64,000 nucleotides of DNA from Escherichia coli (GTDB lineage Bacteria > Pseudomonadota > Gammaproteobacteria > Enterobacterales > Enterobacteriaceae), in the NCBI RefSeq assembly GCF_017348835.2, contig NZ_CP071375.1, one strand, 5' to 3'. The notes below the pieces were generated by a model that saw nothing but the letters and a program-made list of their open reading frames with translations, was not told the DNA's origin and searched no databases. Shown here piece by piece: positions 9,604-18,976 of this stretch. Made by a program: the position numbers and the translations under genes. Position 1 is the stretch's first letter. Every line of letters begins with the position of its first letter.

Positions 9604-10197
9604 ATGAATGAAATCATTTCTGCAGCAGTTTTATTGATCCTGATTATGGATCCGCTCGGAAACCTACCTATTTTCATGTCCGTACTGAAACATACTGAAC
9701 CGAAAAGACGGCGGGCAATCATGGTGCGAGAGTTGCTTATTGCTCTCCTGGTGATGCTGGTGTTCCTGTTTGCGGGTGAGAAAATTCTGGCATTTCTCAG
9801 CCTGCGAGCAGAAACCGTCTCCATTTCTGGCGGCATCATTCTGTTTCTGATCGCCATTAAGATGATTTTCCCCAGCGCTTCAGGAAATAGCAGCGGGCTT
9901 CCGGCAGGTGAAGAGCCGTTTATCGTGCCGTTGGCAATTCCGTTAGTCGCCGGGCCGACTATTCTCGCCACGCTGATGTTGTTGTCTCATCAGTACCCGA
10001 ATCAGATGGGACATCTGGTGATTGCTCTGCTGCTGGCCTGGGGCGGCACCTTTGTCATTCTGCTACAGTCTTCGCTATTTTTACGTCTGCTGGGCGAGAA
10101 AGGGGTGAACGCACTTGAACGCCTGATGGGATTGATTCTGGTGATGATGGCAACCCAGATGTTCCTCGACGGCATTCGAATGTGGATGAAGGGGTAA
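9604..10197 (+). CDS. yhgN: MarC-family inner membrane protein YhgN
   Basis: 197 aa multi-TM ORF, MNEIISAAVLLILIMDPLGNLPIF... Confidence 0.9.
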   Translation: MNEIISAAVLLILIMDPLGNLPIFMSVLKHTEPKRRRAIMVRELLIALLVMLVFLFAGEKILAFLSLRAETVSISGGIILFLIAIKMIFPSASGNSSGLPAGEEPFIVPLAIPLVAGPTILATLMLLSHQYPNQMGHLVIALLLAWGGTFVILLQSSLFLRLLGEKGVNALERLMGLILVMMATQMFLDGIRMWMKG

Positions 10198-10202
10198 GGT
10201 TC

Positions 10203-10242
10203 AAACAGGTGCTGCACACAACCAGACGCGGCACCTGTTTTA
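10203..10242 (+). terminator. Intrinsic terminator after yhgN (10-bp inverted repeat aaacaggtgc/gcacctgttt followed by TTTTATT)
   Basis: Inverted repeat plus T-tract immediately 3' of the yhgN stop; abuts the stop codon of the DprA-like gene on the opposite strand. Confidence 0.55.
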
Positions 10243-11445
10243 TTACCTGAACTGATAATGACCTTCGCCCAATCGGATAACCCTTCCCTCTTCTTCTGCG
10301 CGGTTCAGCCACACACTAATTTGTTCGATGGTTAAACCAGTACAAGACGCCAGCCTTTCAATACTTATCGATTCCTTTGCAAGGATCGCCAGTTCCGCCA
10401 CAAAGAGTTGATAAAAATCGACAGGCGTATACGCGGGCATTACTGCGTAATTTGCGTCATCTTCATGCAGCGAAAACAGTTCTGGTTGAGCGTTACGGAG
10501 TGCTCTGTCATACATCAGCCCAGGAACGTCTGGCAGTCTGATCGTCACATTCTCAGCCTGTTCAGCACTCCATGACGCCCCATTTTCTACTAATCGTGAA
10601 TTGGCTGATTGCATATCCTGATTTGGTTTAACCTGCACAGGCAGCCACTGATGTTTTAATGCCTCCATCGCCCCGGTTATCGTTCCACCGGTCATTCCCG
10701 CACGTACAACCATTGCGCTTTCAGCAAGGCAATAAATATATTTATTTCGCGCCATCGCATTGCCGACGGTGAAACGTACCTCTGGGTAAAACGGCGAAAT
10801 CAACACCAGGTTGCCTGCTATAAGCCCTTCACGCCATTTCACTAACGTACTCGTTTTTAACAAGCTATCAGCTAATACGCCAACGGCAGTTCCCCCGGCC
10901 TCCAGTGCCGACGCCATTGCACATTCATCAATACCTCGCGCACCACCAGAGATAACGCAAATCCCCTGTTGGGCCAGTTTCGCGGCCAGTTGTTGGGTAT
11001 AGCGCAAATCGTCAGTCGGAGCATCTCGCGAGCCAACAATCGCCATACCTTCCGCTTGCAGTAATGCTTTATTCCCGCAGCCAAATAAAACGGGAGGTGC
11101 ATCCGTTCGCAATCGGTTTTTCAAGCGAACGGGATAATCGGCATCTCCGCGGGTTAAGATCCATAAACCGGCGCGTTGCCACTTATCTACCGCCAACGCC
11201 AGACTATGACCGCGCGCCAGCAAGCCAAGAATACGCTCCTGAGAAATACGCGGATCGCTCCAGCCTGTAAGTTTATCTTGCGGTTGCGGCACCAGAAGCT
11301 CGGCGGGACTGATACGTTGGTGCTTCAGCCATAATGCAAACTTCCCCCATTCACTATTACTAAGAGGTTTATACTCACTCGCCGCCGCGCGAGAAAAATC
11401 GCTGGTTAGCAGGAGAGTTGCTTGTGCATTGGCTGAAAGATTCAT
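10243..11445 (-). CDS. DprA/Smf-like protein (SAM-like N-term, Rossmann DprA core with GGARGID motif, C-terminal winged-helix-like tail); partner of helicase-PRTase gene
   Basis: Track ORF 10243..11538; start set to ATG 11445..11443 (MNLSANAQATLLL...), which overlaps the upstream gene stop as TGATG; motif VISGGARGIDECAMASALEAGG typical of DprA Rossmann domain. Confidence 0.75.
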   Translation of the reverse strand: MNLSANAQATLLLTSDFSRAAASEYKPLSNSEWGKFALWLKHQRISPAELLVPQPQDKLTGWSDPRISQERILGLLARGHSLALAVDKWQRAGLWILTRGDADYPVRLKNRLRTDAPPVLFGCGNKALLQAEGMAIVGSRDAPTDDLRYTQQLAAKLAQQGICVISGGARGIDECAMASALEAGGTAVGVLADSLLKTSTLVKWREGLIAGNLVLISPFYPEVRFTVGNAMARNKYIYCLAESAMVVRAGMTGGTITGAMEALKHQWLPVQVKPNQDMQSANSRLVENGASWSAEQAENVTIRLPDVPGLMYDRALRNAQPELFSLHEDDANYAVMPAYTPVDFYQLFVAELAILAKESISIERLASCTGLTIEQISVWLNRAEEEGRVIRLGEGHYQFR

Positions 11446-13541
11446 CAATTTTTTACCGAGGTAGAAGCAAGGGCAAGAGGATAAACCGTCGGGCAACCTG
11501 CCTGGCCTAACAGTGCTGTCAGAACTGTCAGCGTCCATGCAGAATCCACGATATCGTCAACCAGCAACGCCGGACCAGGCATCAAAGGAGGGGTAATCAC
11601 AAACGCCCCGTCGAGATTTTGACACTGGTGGAAACGGTTTTGCTGCATTTTCTGCGGTGGATTGTCCACGACTTTTTCAATGGCATCAATAAAAGGTAAG
11701 CCAAGTTTCGCCGCCAGTCGCCGGGCAAAATCAGGAACCAGGTCGAGGTGCTTTAATGAAGGAACGCAGCATACCCAGGTTGGTTCAGGATGCGGATTCC
11801 AGCGTTGGCGAACCATTTCCGCACATGCCTCCACCAGTTCATCACTGAATCGCCCCGTTTTTTTCTCCTGTGCTACCTGCTTTCCCCACCCGGAATCTCC
11901 CCAACGAGAAAGGATTCGCCCCGTAGATCCTTGTAAACTCGCAGGCAAGTTCCCTTTAAATCCGTATTGCGTAAAAGCCCCAGCTGCCACCTGTTTATTG
12001 AGATTTAATGGCAGGTCAGCGTGTTTAATAAATAAGTTTGCCGCATGGAGTAAGCCGCTATCAATGTCGGGCGACAACAACGGATGCTGAAGACAACTGC
12101 TACATTTACCACAATGTTCGGCACCTGGCTCATCGAGTGCGCGGCGCAGAAATTGCATTTTGCACTCCTTGGTCGTGATATAGCTTTCAACGTCTGCCAG
12201 CTCACTTTTTCTCTGATTCATCAAATGGTTAATTCGTTCATGGTCAGGAGAAAAACTGACAATTGTTCTGCGCCATAATTTCTCGGTATACACCACAGGC
12301 GATGGATTTTCAGCTACCAATAATTTCAGTGCTTTTTCTATTTGCCCGTAACGGAGATTCGTCCGTTGTTCAATGCCTCGTAAGGTAAGACCGTCATTCA
12401 CGCTAAGTACGTTGAGTATTTCATGAATTTGCGCCTCCGCAGGAAAGGCGCTTTCACGGAAGAATTTATGAATAGCACGGTCTTCACTGCCGCAAAGCAG
12501 TATGCCAACAGCAGAATCGATACCGCGACCGGCACGCCCCACCTGTTGGTAGTAACCAACTATCGAACCTGGCATCTGGTAATGAATAACAAACCCCAAA
12601 TCCGGTTTGTCAAAGCCCATTCCCAGCGCCGTTGTCGCAACCAGCACTTTAATTTTATTTGCCAGCAACGCCTGCTCCAGATATTCCCTGGCAGTATTAG
12701 AATCTTCCGCGCCTTCACAAGTCACGCCGCTGTAGTAAGCAAATGCACTGATACCATTTTTCCTTAACCACTCGGCGACAAGTTCGGCATCGCGAGTAGT
12801 CAGGGTATAAACAATTCCCGATTTGGAAAACTGAGGGATAACTGTTGCTAACCATGCCAGACGGGATGACTGTTCACCTAAGACTAAGGCATCAAGCGCC
12901 AAACTTTCGCGAGCCAGCGTTCCACGCTGAATCACAATGTCACCCAATTGCTGACGGATATCCTCAACGACACGGTTATTCGCTGTCGCGGTTGTACCCA
13001 GAACAGGGGTATTCGCAGGTAGTTGGCGCAAAATATCTAATATACGTCGGTAATCCGGGCGAAAATCGTGGCCCCAATCAGAGATGCAGTGCGCCTCGTC
13101 GACCACAAGCAAGCCAATACGATCGGCTATAGGATATAAAACCGTTTCGATAAAGTCCTGGTTTGCCAAACGTTCCGGGGAAACCAGCAAGCAATCGACC
13201 TCACCTTGCAGCAACTTATCGCTAATGCGCTGCCATTCTTCTCTGTTTGTAGAATTCAACGTTTCAGCCGTAATACCTAACCGTTCAGCGGCGGCAACCT
13301 GGTTACGCATCAGGGCAAGCAAAGGAGAGATGATAATTGTCGGGCCAGCGCCGCGATCGCGGAAGATTTTACTGGCGATGAAGTACACAGCACTTTTCCC
13401 CCAGCCAGTGCGTTGGACAACCAGCAGTTTTCGCCGTTGGTTCACCACCGCGTCTATGGCTTCCCATTGCCCTTCCCTGAAAGTAGCGGTGGTATTTCCT
13501 AACATCCGCTGTAAAAGCAATTCAGCTGCGTGCTTTTCCAT
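11445..13541 (-). CDS. RecQ-family SF2 helicase fused to C-terminal ComF/GntX-type PRTase-like domain
   Basis: 698 aa; helicase motifs TGWGKS (Walker A), VVDEAHCISDWGHDFRPDY (DEAH), TATA, QQVGRAGR; RecQ-type Zn cluster CK...C..C..C (HCGKCSSC); C-terminal QNLDGAFVITPP...ALLVDDIVDSAWTLT resembles a PRTase fold with substituted PRPP loop; AGGAG SD 5 nt before ATG. Confidence 0.8.
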   Translation of the reverse strand: MEKHAAELLLQRMLGNTTATFREGQWEAIDAVVNQRRKLLVVQRTGWGKSAVYFIASKIFRDRGAGPTIIISPLLALMRNQVAAAERLGITAETLNSTNREEWQRISDKLLQGEVDCLLVSPERLANQDFIETVLYPIADRIGLLVVDEAHCISDWGHDFRPDYRRILDILRQLPANTPVLGTTATANNRVVEDIRQQLGDIVIQRGTLARESLALDALVLGEQSSRLAWLATVIPQFSKSGIVYTLTTRDAELVAEWLRKNGISAFAYYSGVTCEGAEDSNTAREYLEQALLANKIKVLVATTALGMGFDKPDLGFVIHYQMPGSIVGYYQQVGRAGRGIDSAVGILLCGSEDRAIHKFFRESAFPAEAQIHEILNVLSVNDGLTLRGIEQRTNLRYGQIEKALKLLVAENPSPVVYTEKLWRRTIVSFSPDHERINHLMNQRKSELADVESYITTKECKMQFLRRALDEPGAEHCGKCSSCLQHPLLSPDIDSGLLHAANLFIKHADLPLNLNKQVAAGAFTQYGFKGNLPASLQGSTGRILSRWGDSGWGKQVAQEKKTGRFSDELVEACAEMVRQRWNPHPEPTWVCCVPSLKHLDLVPDFARRLAAKLGLPFIDAIEKVVDNPPQKMQQNRFHQCQNLDGAFVITPPLMPGPALLVDDIVDSAWTLTVLTALLGQAGCPTVYPLALASTSVKN

Positions 13542-13639
13542 CTTTATCTCCTGCGATCTTTAGGCAGTGATTAGAACGGATTATTTGCAGGTAAATTTGC
13601 GAGAGAGATCAAAAAGATGAAGAGAGGAGAAAAGAGAAA

Positions 13640-13667
13640 TGAATTACTGCGAGCAAGCTCGCAGTAA
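13640..13667 (-). terminator. Intrinsic terminator after gntU (palindrome ttactgcgagc-aa-gctcgcagtaa, U-tract on minus-strand RNA)
   Basis: Near-perfect 11-bp inverted repeat just 3' of the gntU stop (13681), followed by T/C-rich run on the transcribed strand. Confidence 0.55.
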
Positions 13668-13680
13668 TTTGTCGCAGTAA

Positions 13681-15021
13681 TTAACTCAACAGCTGGAACG
13701 CAATCATCCCAACGATGGCACCAACAGTGCCGAGGATGGTTTCCATCATGGTCCAGGTTTTCAGCGTTTCGGCTTCGGTCGCGCCGGTAAATTTACCGAA
13801 CAACCAGAAACCGGCGTCGTTAACGTGGCTGACAACAATCGAACCACCGGCGATACAAATCGACAGCGCCGCCATTTGCGCACCGGAATAGTTCAGTTGT
13901 TCAATGACCGGCATCACCAGCCCCACCGCCGTTAAACAGGCAACGGTGGCAGACCCCTGAATGATGCGCACTGCAGCTGCCAGCACGAAGCAGGTGATAG
14001 CAATCGGCAGGCCCATGCCGGTTAACGCTTCGCCCAGTGCCGGACCTACGCCAGAGTCAACCAGCACCTGTTTGAACACGCCGCCCGCACCAATCACCAG
14101 CAGAATGATCCCCGCCGGTTGCAGCGCGTGACCGCAAATCTCCATCACTTTGTCTTTTGGCATGCCCTGACGCATTGCCAGACCGTAAATCGCCACCAGA
14201 CAAGCAACCAGAATCGCGGTAAACGGATGACCAATAAACTCGAACCATTCGTAAGCGGTAGAGCCTTCCGGCACAAAACGCGCGGCAATGGTTTTCAGCC
14301 CCACCAGCACCAGCGGCAGCAGGATCAGCGACAGGCTGAATCCGAAGGACGGCATTTTGCCTTCGCCGAGATGCGGCTCGCTGATGTCGTCAGGAATATG
14401 CAGCTCAACGTAACGGCTGATGAAGTTACCCCACAGCGGCCCGGCAATAATCATTCCCGGAATTGCCGCACACAGGCCAATCAGGATCATCCAGCCAAAA
14501 TCGGCGTTCATCTGCGATGCCAGCAGCATTGGCGCTGGCCCTGGCACCAGGAACGCCGCCGCTGCCGCCACGCCTGCGAATAATGGGATTACCAGCTTCA
14601 CCAGGTTCGTACCGGTGTGGCGCGCCATTGAAAAAGCAACGCTAATCAGCAGAACAATCGCCACTTCAAAGAACAGCGGTAGCGCACAGACCAGCCCCGC
14701 AAGGCCGATGGCATAATGCGCGCGGCTGTGACCGAAGGATTTGAGCATTTTGACGGCAATCTGATCGACTGCGCCGGTTTCATGTAAGATCTTGCCAAAC
14801 ATAGCTCCCAGGGCGACAACCACCGCCAGGAAGCCGAGGGTGCCTCCCATCCCTTTTTCCATCGTCGCTGCGATTTTATCGAGCGGCATACCGGAAAAAA
14901 GGCCAGCCCCCATGGACACCACCATCAAAGCCAGGAAAGCGTGCATACGCGCCTTCATGACTAAAAACAGCAGCAGTAAAACAGACCCTACTGCTGTTAA
15001 AACAAGCGTTAATGTAGTCAC
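13681..15021 (-). CDS. gntU: Low-affinity gluconate transporter GntU
   Basis: 446 aa GntP-family permease ORF, MTTLTLVLTAVGSVLLLLFLVMKARMH... Confidence 0.93.
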   Translation of the reverse strand: MTTLTLVLTAVGSVLLLLFLVMKARMHAFLALMVVSMGAGLFSGMPLDKIAATMEKGMGGTLGFLAVVVALGAMFGKILHETGAVDQIAVKMLKSFGHSRAHYAIGLAGLVCALPLFFEVAIVLLISVAFSMARHTGTNLVKLVIPLFAGVAAAAAFLVPGPAPMLLASQMNADFGWMILIGLCAAIPGMIIAGPLWGNFISRYVELHIPDDISEPHLGEGKMPSFGFSLSLILLPLVLVGLKTIAARFVPEGSTAYEWFEFIGHPFTAILVACLVAIYGLAMRQGMPKDKVMEICGHALQPAGIILLVIGAGGVFKQVLVDSGVGPALGEALTGMGLPIAITCFVLAAAVRIIQGSATVACLTAVGLVMPVIEQLNYSGAQMAALSICIAGGSIVVSHVNDAGFWLFGKFTGATEAETLKTWTMMETILGTVGAIVGMIAFQLLS

Positions 15022-18765: not shown

Positions 18766-18886
18766 GATTTCGTCCTTTTTAAGGTGGTTATTTACACCTT
18801 AGCGCAAAGCGGACGTGGTTCCTACTGGAGTGCGCATAACGAACACAAGCACTCCCGTGGATAAATTGAGAACGAAAGATCAAAAA

Positions 18887-18976
18887 AAAAGCCAGCACCC
18901 GGCTGGCTAAGTAATACTGGAAGCAATGTGAGCAATGTCGTGCTTTCAGGTTCTCCGCGAGGGTCTTCCTGATCGC
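18887..18976 (-). ncRNA. ryhB: RyhB small RNA (Fur-repressed, iron-sparing regulator)
   Basis: Minus-strand sequence GCGATCAGGAAGACCCTCGCGGAGAACCTGAAAGCACGACATTGCTCACATTGCTTCCAGTATTACTTAGCCAGCCGGGTGCTGGC + U-tract matches RyhB; located between yhhX and yhhY as expected. Confidence 0.9.

What the first reader, a model, noticed from the sequence alone, without database searches (positions are those of the whole stretch)
10243..13541. Two-gene RecQ-helicase/PRTase-like + DprA-like operon between yhgN and gntU: candidate undescribed defence/conflict system
Two translationally coupled minus-strand genes fill the gap between the convergent yhgN and gntU, which as far as I recall are adjacent in E. 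coli K-12. Gene 1 (698 aa) has a complete RecQ-family helicase core, a RecQ-type Zn cluster and, in place of the usual WH/HRDC tail, a ComF/GntX-type PRTase-like domain. Gene 2 (400 aa) has the full DprA architecture. Helicase + PRTase + DprA echoes the DNA-uptake proteins ComFA/ComFC/DprA, and PRTase plus DprA-like is the pairing I recall for the ShosTA defence toxin-antitoxin pair, but I do not recognise a described system with a RecQ helicase fused to the PRTase-like domain. I therefore read it as an accessory module, possibly acting on invading single-stranded DNA or as an abortive-infection toxin-antitoxin pair.
Basis: partly seen in the sequence, partly recalled or inferred. Interest (0 to 1): 0.92.

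Follow-up and report, generated by a model that had tools for sequence, protein, structure and literature searches.

The report
Known PsyrTA (RqlHI) toxin-antitoxin module
The two genes are real and the domains were read correctly, but this is the already described PsyrTA/RqlHI toxin-antitoxin and candidate phage-defence pair of E. coli, studied at this same chromosomal site since 2015, so it is not a new system.

Summary
Two intact minus-strand genes of 698 aa and 400 aa, overlapping by 1 nt, lie between yhgN and gntU. The first has a RecQ-family helicase core, a four-cysteine Zn cluster and a C-terminal PRTase fold. The second has a DprA-like Rossmann domain.

The claim that the system is undescribed is wrong. 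PADLOC matches both proteins end to end to PsyrT (1063 bits) and PsyrA (670 bits). Residues K49, D148 and D663 fall exactly where Russell & Mulvey (2015) mutated E. coli F11 RqlH. That study showed PRTase-dependent genotoxicity neutralised by the 400-aa RqlI, which binds RqlH. Millman et al. (2022) list PsyrTA (=RqlHI) as an anti-phage system.

Millman et al. also cloned this E. coli module from strain STEC 1299, and it starts at the same base after gntU. They saw no defence with it, whereas a Bacillus homologue did protect. A native-host study also found no protection.

The module is accessory. 1641 of 5426 complete E. coli genomes carry it at this site, and the others have an empty site. Citrobacter carries a diverged copy at the same locus. 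A Proteus homologue sits inside a type I R-M operon. O157:H7 strains carry a broken toxin gene.

Verdict: already known, low interest.

The parts
11445..13541 (-). psyrT / rqlH: 698-aa toxin with a RecQ-like SF2 helicase fused to a C-terminal PRTase domain
   Evidence: ORF. PADLOC PsyrT E=0, 1063 bits, residues 3-697 against profile 5-687/689. K49, D148 and D663 are at the F11 RqlH positions.
12471..13484 (-). Helicase core (residues about 20-357): Walker A GWGKS at 46-50, DEAH at 148-151
   Evidence: Pfam DEAD 23-194 and Helicase_C 239-339. NCBIfam recQ_fam is above its cut-off. PDB RecQ, BLM and RECQ1 hits cover residues 7-370 only.
12093..12164 (-). Four-cysteine RecQ-type Zn cluster (C460, C477, C480, C483)
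   Evidence: Pfam RecQ_Zn_bind 443-484, E=0.0031. Cysteine positions.
11448..12017 (-). PRTase domain (residues about 509-698), with the PRPP-loop-like motif LLVDDIVDSAWT and D663
   Evidence: Pfam Pribosyltran weak, E=0.018. PF00156 is precomputed on most homologues. The model has pLDDT 79-95 in the best-modelled blocks of its core. Its top Foldseek hit is ComF 7p0h, and the other listed hits are all PRTase-fold, PRPP-binding enzymes. Literature: deleting 509-690 or mutating D663A abolishes toxicity.
10243..11445 (-). psyrA / rqlI: 400-aa DprA-like antitoxin; its start overlaps the psyrT stop by 1 nt (TGATG)
   Evidence: PADLOC PsyrA 2.9e-202, residues 1-400 against profile 1-397/398. Junction sequence. 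RqlI is 400 aa in PMC4670107 and PsyrA is 400 aa in Millman Table S2.
10570..11181 (-). DprA-like Rossmann (SLOG) domain of PsyrA, residues 89-292
   Evidence: Pfam DNA_processg_A 4.7e-51 and LDcluster4 4.4e-11. PDB DprA and ShosA hits.
10204..10239 (.). Hairpin (AACAGGTGC...GCACCTGTT) between the convergent yhgN and psyrA stops, likely a bidirectional terminator
   Evidence: Read from the sequence. The simple terminator scan did not flag it, so its function is inferred.
13542..13680 (-). 139-nt spacer between gntU and psyrT, with a terminator-like hairpin for gntU at 13642-13669 and the presumed native promoter
   Evidence: Terminator-like site with 12 pairs. No sigma-70 consensus was found. 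Millman's native-promoter construct SG127 starts at 13681.

Best explanation
This is the E. coli PsyrTA (=RqlHI) two-gene toxin-antitoxin module, which current tools classify as an anti-phage defence system.

Shown in the literature for the F11 orthologue, which has identical residue numbering:
- PsyrT/RqlH alone is genotoxic, causing SOS induction, filamentation and loss of viability.
- Toxicity needs the C-terminal PRTase domain and its putative PRPP-binding aspartate D663.
- The PRTase domain alone is not sufficient for toxicity.
- The helicase ATPase residues K49 and D148 restrain the toxicity.
- PsyrA/RqlI co-immunoprecipitates with RqlH only when the PRTase domain is present, and it neutralises RqlH.

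Inferred:
- In uninfected cells the two translationally coupled proteins form an inactive complex.
- A phage or other invader disturbs this complex. It could do so by stopping synthesis of the antitoxin, by diverting the DprA-like antitoxin onto ssDNA, or through DNA structures sensed by the helicase.
- The PRTase activity is then released. By analogy with ShosT it consumes or misuses PRPP and perturbs nucleotide or DNA metabolism, halting replication of host and phage (abortive infection).

Anti-phage activity is shown for a Bacillus homologue. It has not been seen for the E. coli allele.
For: - PADLOC gives full-length matches to PsyrT (E=0, 1063 bits) and PsyrA (2.9e-202).
- K49, D148 and D663 lie at exactly the positions mutated in F11 RqlH, and RqlI is 400 aa.
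- Millman et al. state that PsyrTA, also called RqlHI, is phage-protective, with a DprA-like antitoxin and a PRTase toxin.
- Their construct SG127 is this same module from E. coli STEC 1299. Visible PsyrT fragments match 143/143 and 79/82. PsyrA fragments match 140/143 and 86/89. The upstream fragment matches 110/113 and starts at window 13681.
- The module is accessory: 1641 of 5426 complete E. coli genomes carry it, and the others have an empty site.
- A 66%-identical Proteus homologue pair is nested in a type I R-M operon, hsdM-hsdS-psyrT-psyrA-hsdR.
- The module evolves much faster than its flanks: 73% and 63% aa identity to Citrobacter against 90-97% for the flanking genes.
- The ShosT/ShosA mechanism used as an analogy is described.
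Against: - The E. coli allele gave no observed defence in Millman's panel (SG127 'x').
- Another E. coli PsyrTA (strain NILS69) showed no detectable protection in the over-expression assay described. A deletion mutant was also constructed there. Expression in MG1655 only caused a growth defect.
- No substrate or product of the PRTase domain is known.
- No PsyrT or PsyrA structure is in the PDB by sequence search.
- ShosT profiles do not hit the PRTase tail even at E<=1, so the ShosT analogy rests on fold only.
- Russell & Mulvey propose a cooperative DNA-metabolism role rather than immunity.
Confidence: 0.93

Rival explanations
1. It is a genome-maintenance or host-fitness module rather than immunity. 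RqlH and RqlI act together on chromosomal DNA, for example under low oxygen or DNA stress, and the toxicity is a side-effect of unbalancing the pair.
For: - Russell & Mulvey found that the rqlI deletion mutant is attenuated in animal models and grows poorly at low oxygen, and they proposed cooperative action on DNA.
- No phage protection was seen for E. coli alleles in two studies.
- The pair sits at the same site in E. coli, Citrobacter and another enterobacterium, with no mobility genes.
Against: - The rqlI deletion phenotypes are suppressed by deleting rqlH, so they reflect unleashed toxin rather than loss of a beneficial activity.
- 70% of complete E. coli genomes lack the module.
- The toxin gene is a pseudogene in O157:H7.
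- The module diverges fast relative to its flanks.
- The Proteus homologue sits inside a type I R-M operon.
- A Bacillus homologue protects against phage.
Confidence: 0.2
2. It is a selfish addiction (post-segregational killing) cassette with no benefit to the host, kept only because losing the antitoxin kills.
For: It is a toxic protein with a cognate neutraliser. Millman et al. could not obtain psyrA deletion constructs. Presence is patchy.
Against: It is chromosomal, at a fixed site between core genes with no mobile-element genes. It has evidently been lost or inactivated many times without lethality, as shown by empty sites and the O157 toxin pseudogene. Its defence-island context in Proteus also argues against this.
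Confidence: 0.1
3. It is a DNA-uptake or competence-related module analogous to ComFA/ComFC/DprA, processing incoming ssDNA.
For: The best structural match of the PRTase tail is H. pylori ComF. The partner has a DprA-like domain. Russell & Mulvey discuss this connection.
Against: Gene 2 scores below both NCBIfam DprA cut-offs (102 against 191; 79.9 against 495). According to Russell & Mulvey, F11 and other ExPEC isolates also encode a separate, more canonical DprA. No competence genes are adjacent. The helicase is RecQ-type, not ComFA-type.
Confidence: 0.05

Closest known systems
PsyrTA / RqlHI (E. coli F11 RqlH-RqlI; P. syringae PsyrTA; Bacillus sp. FJAT-29814 PsyrTA)
   Same: - Full-length profile matches for both proteins.
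- The same gene order and overlap, and the same lengths (698 and 400 aa).
- Identical positions of K49, D148 and D663.
- The same chromosomal module as Millman's E. coli STEC 1299 construct.
   Different: Nothing architectural. This allele differs by a few percent from the B2-type allele (94.7% nt in psyrT, 98.8% in psyrA, against strain CD306). Anti-phage activity is demonstrated only for the Bacillus member.
ShosTA
   Same: A two-gene toxin-antitoxin pair with a PRTase-fold toxin and a DprA-like antitoxin. PsyrA hits ShosA profiles (2.8e-27) and the ShosA structure 9vzo. Both cause filamentation and DNA damage.
   Different: According to the abstracts read, ShosT contains a PRTase domain and no helicase is mentioned. 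ShosT profiles do not match the PsyrT tail. ShosA neutralises ShosT without binding it (type IV), whereas RqlI co-precipitates with RqlH through the PRTase domain.
Housekeeping RecQ and M. smegmatis RqlH
   Same: RecQ-family SF2 core and Zn cluster. The literature describes M. smegmatis RqlH as a helicase of this family that carries the same PRTase tail.
   Different: Below the recQ equivalog cut-off (298 against 640.2). No HRDC was detected, and the PDB RecQ alignments stop near residue 370. According to the literature, Gram-positive RqlH usually lacks an RqlI partner.
ComF/ComFC and DprA of natural competence
   Same: A ComF-like PRTase fold and the DprA Rossmann domain.
   Different: Both are below the family cut-offs. 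The PRTase is fused to a RecQ helicase. There is no competence context. Expression alone is toxic.

Membership tests
PsyrTA / RqlHI | Toxin is a RecQ-like helicase fused to a C-terminal PRTase domain | tested here: met
   PADLOC PsyrT full length. Pfam and NCBIfam helicase hits. PRTase fold by model and Foldseek, plus PF00156 on homologues.
PsyrTA / RqlHI | Partner is a DprA-like protein encoded immediately downstream, overlapping or abutting the toxin gene | tested here: met
   PADLOC PsyrA 2.9e-202. DNA_processg_A 4.7e-51. 1-nt overlap TGATG. The same order is seen in Citrobacter and Proteus.
PsyrTA / RqlHI | Catalytic and functional residues shown to matter in F11 RqlH (K49, D148, DIVD663) are present | tested here: met
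   K49, D148 and DIVD at 663, compared.
PsyrTA / RqlHI | Toxin is toxic alone and neutralised by the partner | not testable with these tools
   Shown for the F11 orthologue in PMC4670107. Not measured for this strain.
PsyrTA / RqlHI | Protects against phage | not testable with these tools
   Literature only. The Bacillus sp. FJAT-29814 system is verified. E. coli STEC 1299 (this module) showed no observed defence. NILS69 PsyrTA showed no detectable protection.
ShosTA | Toxin matches ShosT (a PRTase-domain toxin; no helicase is mentioned in the abstracts read) | tested here: not met
   No ShosT profile hit for the PRTase tail at E<=1. The toxin carries a 500-aa helicase.
ShosTA | Antitoxin matches ShosA | tested here: inconclusive
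   Partial hits of 2.8e-27 and 7.7e-08 over the Rossmann domain only, far below PsyrA at 2.9e-202.
RecQ (housekeeping equivalog) | Score above the TIGR01389 or NF008279 cut-off, with an RQC/HRDC tail | tested here: not met
   298 against 640.2 and 226 against 1015. The alignments end near residue 365.
DprA (equivalog) | Score above the TIGR00732 or NF008007 cut-off | tested here: not met
   102 against 191.15 and 79.9 against 495.
Dpd (DpdF helicase of the 7-deazaguanine DNA-modification system) | DpdF equivalog score and neighbouring dpd genes | tested here: not met
   NCBIfam DpdF scores 150 against a cut-off of 550. The neighbours are yhgN and gntU. The PADLOC DpdF hits reflect generic helicase similarity or short models that cover the PsyrT tail.

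The most novel reading that the evidence does not exclude
The enterobacterial chromosomal allele of PsyrTA may not be a phage-defence system in practice. It could be an old resident of the gntU/yhgN site with another target, such as plasmids, conjugative ssDNA or satellites, or an endogenous DNA-stress role. Lineages such as O157:H7 would then have kept only the DprA-like partner for a toxin-independent function. This fits two negative phage tests of E. coli alleles, the conserved site across genera and the intact orphan psyrA in O157:H7. No tool result here shows it directly.
Probability: 0.2. Interest if true: 0.4.

Novelty: already known. Interest (0 to 1): 0.12.

Why it matters
As a discovery it does not matter, because the system, its architecture and this exact E. 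coli locus are already in the literature and in PADLOC and DefenseFinder.

What remains open is mechanistic:
- what the PRTase domain does chemically;
- what the helicase senses;
- what triggers the E. coli allele, which has failed to protect in two published tests.

The locus is a convenient natural presence/absence polymorphism. O157:H7 supplies a natural toxin-null, antitoxin-intact variant for such work.

Tried and rejected
- Sequence search of the PRTase tail alone against the PDB gave only chance-level hits (best E=0.74; PRPP synthetase loop at E=1.6). A modelled structure was needed to show the fold.
- The sigma-70 promoter scan found nothing in or upstream of the operon, so the promoter is unlocated.
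- The attempt to count O157-type 29-bp duplication alleles by megablast was confounded. Single-copy genomes with 100% identity were joined from two pieces and counted as full coverage (H26). The figure of 366 is therefore only an upper bound.
- Rejected DpdF (cut-off, no dpd neighbours).
- Rejected true RecQ and true DprA (below cut-offs).
- Rejected ShosTA membership (no ShosT match).
- Rejected a mobile-element insertion. There is no integrase, transposase or direct repeat at the junctions. The module simply replaces the 56-nt yhgN-gntU spacer.
- Base composition does not mark it as foreign.
Full report
**Observation**

The six-frame ORF list shows two minus-strand ORFs that fill the space between yhgN (9604..10197, +) and gntU (13681..15021, -). 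The first is 11445..13541 (698 aa). The second is 10243..11538 (up to 431 aa).

An internal ATG at 11445 gives a 400-aa protein. Its start overlaps the upstream stop by one base (TGATG). The wider order is glgB-asd-yhgN-[two genes]-gntU-gntK-gntR-yhhW. GC content (0.45-0.53) differs little from the flanks.

**Domains**

Gene 1 has these Pfam and NCBIfam results:
- DEAD, E=4.9e-25.
- Helicase_C, E=9.5e-13.
- A weak RecQ_Zn_bind hit, E=0.0031 over residues 443-484.
- A weak Pribosyltran hit, E=0.018 over residues 605-683.
- It passes the NCBIfam RecQ-family subfamily cut-off (253.8 against 219.8). It is far below the RecQ equivalog cut-offs (298 against 640).

Four cysteines lie at 460, 477, 480 and 483. 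PDB sequence hits (RecQ, BLM, RECQ1, RECQ5, WRN) cover only residues about 7-370.

Because the PRTase call was weak, I tested it three ways:
- Most homologues at 65-72% identity carry a precomputed PF00156 hit.
- The PADLOC PsyrT profile aligns to the tail alone at 1.9e-78.
- I modelled the last 215 residues with AlphaFold from an 11-sequence alignment. Mean pLDDT was 65, with block means of 79-95 in the best parts of the alpha/beta core. The first ~67 residues were disordered or low in confidence.

Foldseek on that model against the PDB gave H. pylori ComF (7p0h) as top hit. All the other listed hits are PRPP-binding enzymes of the PRTase fold: HGPRT, PurF, OPRT, APRT and PRPP synthetase. The E-values are modest (3.7e-4 and weaker).

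Gene 2 has DNA_processg_A at 4.7e-51 (residues 89-292) and SLOG cluster4 at 4.4e-11. It is below both NCBIfam DprA cut-offs. The N-terminal 88 and C-terminal 108 residues have no significant Pfam match, so 'full DprA architecture' is only partly shown.

**Identity**

PADLOC matches gene 1 to PsyrT (E=0, 1063 bits, residues 3-697 on profile 5-687/689). It matches gene 2 to PsyrA (2.9e-202, residues 1-400 on profile 1-397/398). ShosA is a distant second for gene 2 (2.8e-27, Rossmann domain only).

PsyrTA is also called RqlHI. Russell & Mulvey 2015 (PMC4670107) studied the E. coli F11 pair. Their findings:
- RqlH is a RecQ-like helicase with a C-terminal PRTase domain (residues 509-690).
- RqlI is 400 aa, with a DprA-homology region and a C-terminal HTH.
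- RqlH alone causes growth inhibition, SOS induction and filamentation in MG1655, which lacks both genes.
- Toxicity is abolished by deleting the PRTase domain, or by D663A or DIVD663EVME.
- The PRTase domain alone is not sufficient for toxicity.
- The helicase mutants K49A and D148A are harmful in a PRTase-dependent way.
- RqlI co-immunoprecipitates with full-length RqlH but not with RqlH 1-509.

In the window protein, K49, D148 and DIVD663 sit at exactly those positions. This is the same gene.

Millman et al. 2022 list PsyrTA (=RqlHI) among TA systems involved in phage resistance. Their Table S2 holds two constructs:
- SG127, 'Escherichia coli STEC 1299', 3485 bp, observed defence 'x'.
- SG128, 'Bacillus sp. 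FJAT-29814', observed defence 'v'.

The visible fragments of SG127 match the window as follows:

| Fragment | Match |
|---|---|
| PsyrT fragment 1 | 143/143 |
| PsyrT fragment 2 | 79/82 |
| PsyrA fragment 1 | 140/143 |
| PsyrA fragment 2 | 86/89 |
| Upstream DNA | 110/113 |

The construct starts at window position 13681. With a length of 3485 bp it spans the whole yhgN-gntU insert.

A native-host study of E. coli NILS69 detected no protective activity for its PsyrTA, only a growth defect on expression in MG1655. A literature search for a mechanistic PsyrTA study found none. The PDB has no PsyrT or PsyrA entry by sequence search.

**Distribution and context**

- Of 5426 complete E. coli genomes, 1641 carry at least 80% of the 3.6-kb query at this chromosomal site. 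There is one place per genome and none are on plasmids. The rest match only the yhgN end.
- In an empty-site genome (ST540), yhgN and gntU are 56 nt apart.
- The alignment shows the module replaces that spacer exactly, from the yhgN stop to just before the gntU stop. There are no repeats or mobility genes.
- The allele of E. coli strain CD306 (a cat isolate) is 94.7% (psyrT) and 98.8% (psyrA) identical in DNA. The flanking genes are 97-99% identical.
- Citrobacter freundii and an unnamed enterobacterial metagenome contig carry the pair at the same site. The Citrobacter proteins are only 73% and 63% identical, against 90-97% for the flanking proteins. That means either fast evolution or cassette replacement at a fixed site.
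- In Proteus terrae a 66%-identical pair lies inside a type I R-M operon, hsdM-hsdS-psyrT-psyrA-hsdR. This is a typical defence-island context.

**Mechanism**

Shown in the literature: PRTase-dependent genotoxicity of PsyrT/RqlH, and neutralisation by a physically interacting PsyrA/RqlI.

The rest is inferred, by analogy with ShosTA. There the PRTase toxin binds PRPP and perturbs purine metabolism. The DprA-like antitoxin binds ssDNA and RecA and is unstable, so a phage-induced translation shut-off releases the toxin. The inferred steps for PsyrTA are:
- The helicase places or gates the PRTase on DNA.
- Infection frees the PRTase from PsyrA.
- Replication of host and phage stops.

The analogy rests on fold only, because ShosT profiles do not hit the PsyrT tail. 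ShosA also acts without binding ShosT, unlike RqlI.

**Verdict**

The functional guess was good. The novelty claim fails, so this is an already known system at an already studied locus.

The residual interest lies in three points. The chemistry and trigger are unresolved. The E. coli allele has given only negative phage tests. O157:H7 strains carry a natural toxin pseudogene with an intact antitoxin.

Noticed in passing
window 11727-11755 and 13025; locus L007 (E. coli O157:H7 7386WT): In O157:H7 strains the toxin gene psyrT/rqlH is a pseudogene. It has a 29-bp tandem duplication of window 11727-11755, inside the PRTase domain, and a 1-bp deletion at window 13025. psyrA stays intact, leaving an orphan antitoxin. 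The duplication was also seen in strains Gim1-1 and PNUSAE146742.
   Followed up: partly
window 11445-11538: RefSeq/PGAP annotates the DprA-like gene as 431 aa starting at 11538, overlapping psyrT by 94 nt. The PADLOC PsyrA profile, the Citrobacter orthologue (401 aa, 4-nt overlap), Russell & Mulvey and Millman Table S2 all fit the 400-aa start at 11445. The database start is probably over-extended.
   Followed up: yes
L003/L004 6001-9302 (Citrobacter freundii); L008 5001-8302: The same two genes occupy the same gntU / yhgN-asd site in Citrobacter and another enterobacterium. They are far more diverged (73% and 63% aa) than the flanking genes (90-97%). This points to an old, fast-evolving resident or repeated cassette replacement at one site.
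   Followed up: partly
L010/L011 1634-11743 (Proteus terrae): A 66%-identical PsyrT with a longer, 463-aa PsyrA is nested between hsdS and hsdR of a type I restriction-modification operon.
   Followed up: no
PADLOC models PDLC02869 and PDLC02866, against window 11448-12000: Two PADLOC models named DpdF (74 and 255 positions) match only the PRTase tail of PsyrT (2.5e-53 and 3.2e-12). They look like fragments of PsyrT-like proteins filed under DpdF and could cause mis-annotation.
   Followed up: no
window 18883-18947 (-): RyhB sRNA, a full-length Rfam match (83 bits), downstream of the yhhW/yhhX region. This is ordinary for E. coli.
   Followed up: no
P0002-P0013 (Shigella sonnei): Shigella sonnei carries truncated RqlH variants of 593-657 aa that lack Pribosyltran hits. 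This agrees with the IS disruption of the PRTase region reported by Russell & Mulvey, and is a second lineage with an inactivated toxin domain.
   Followed up: no
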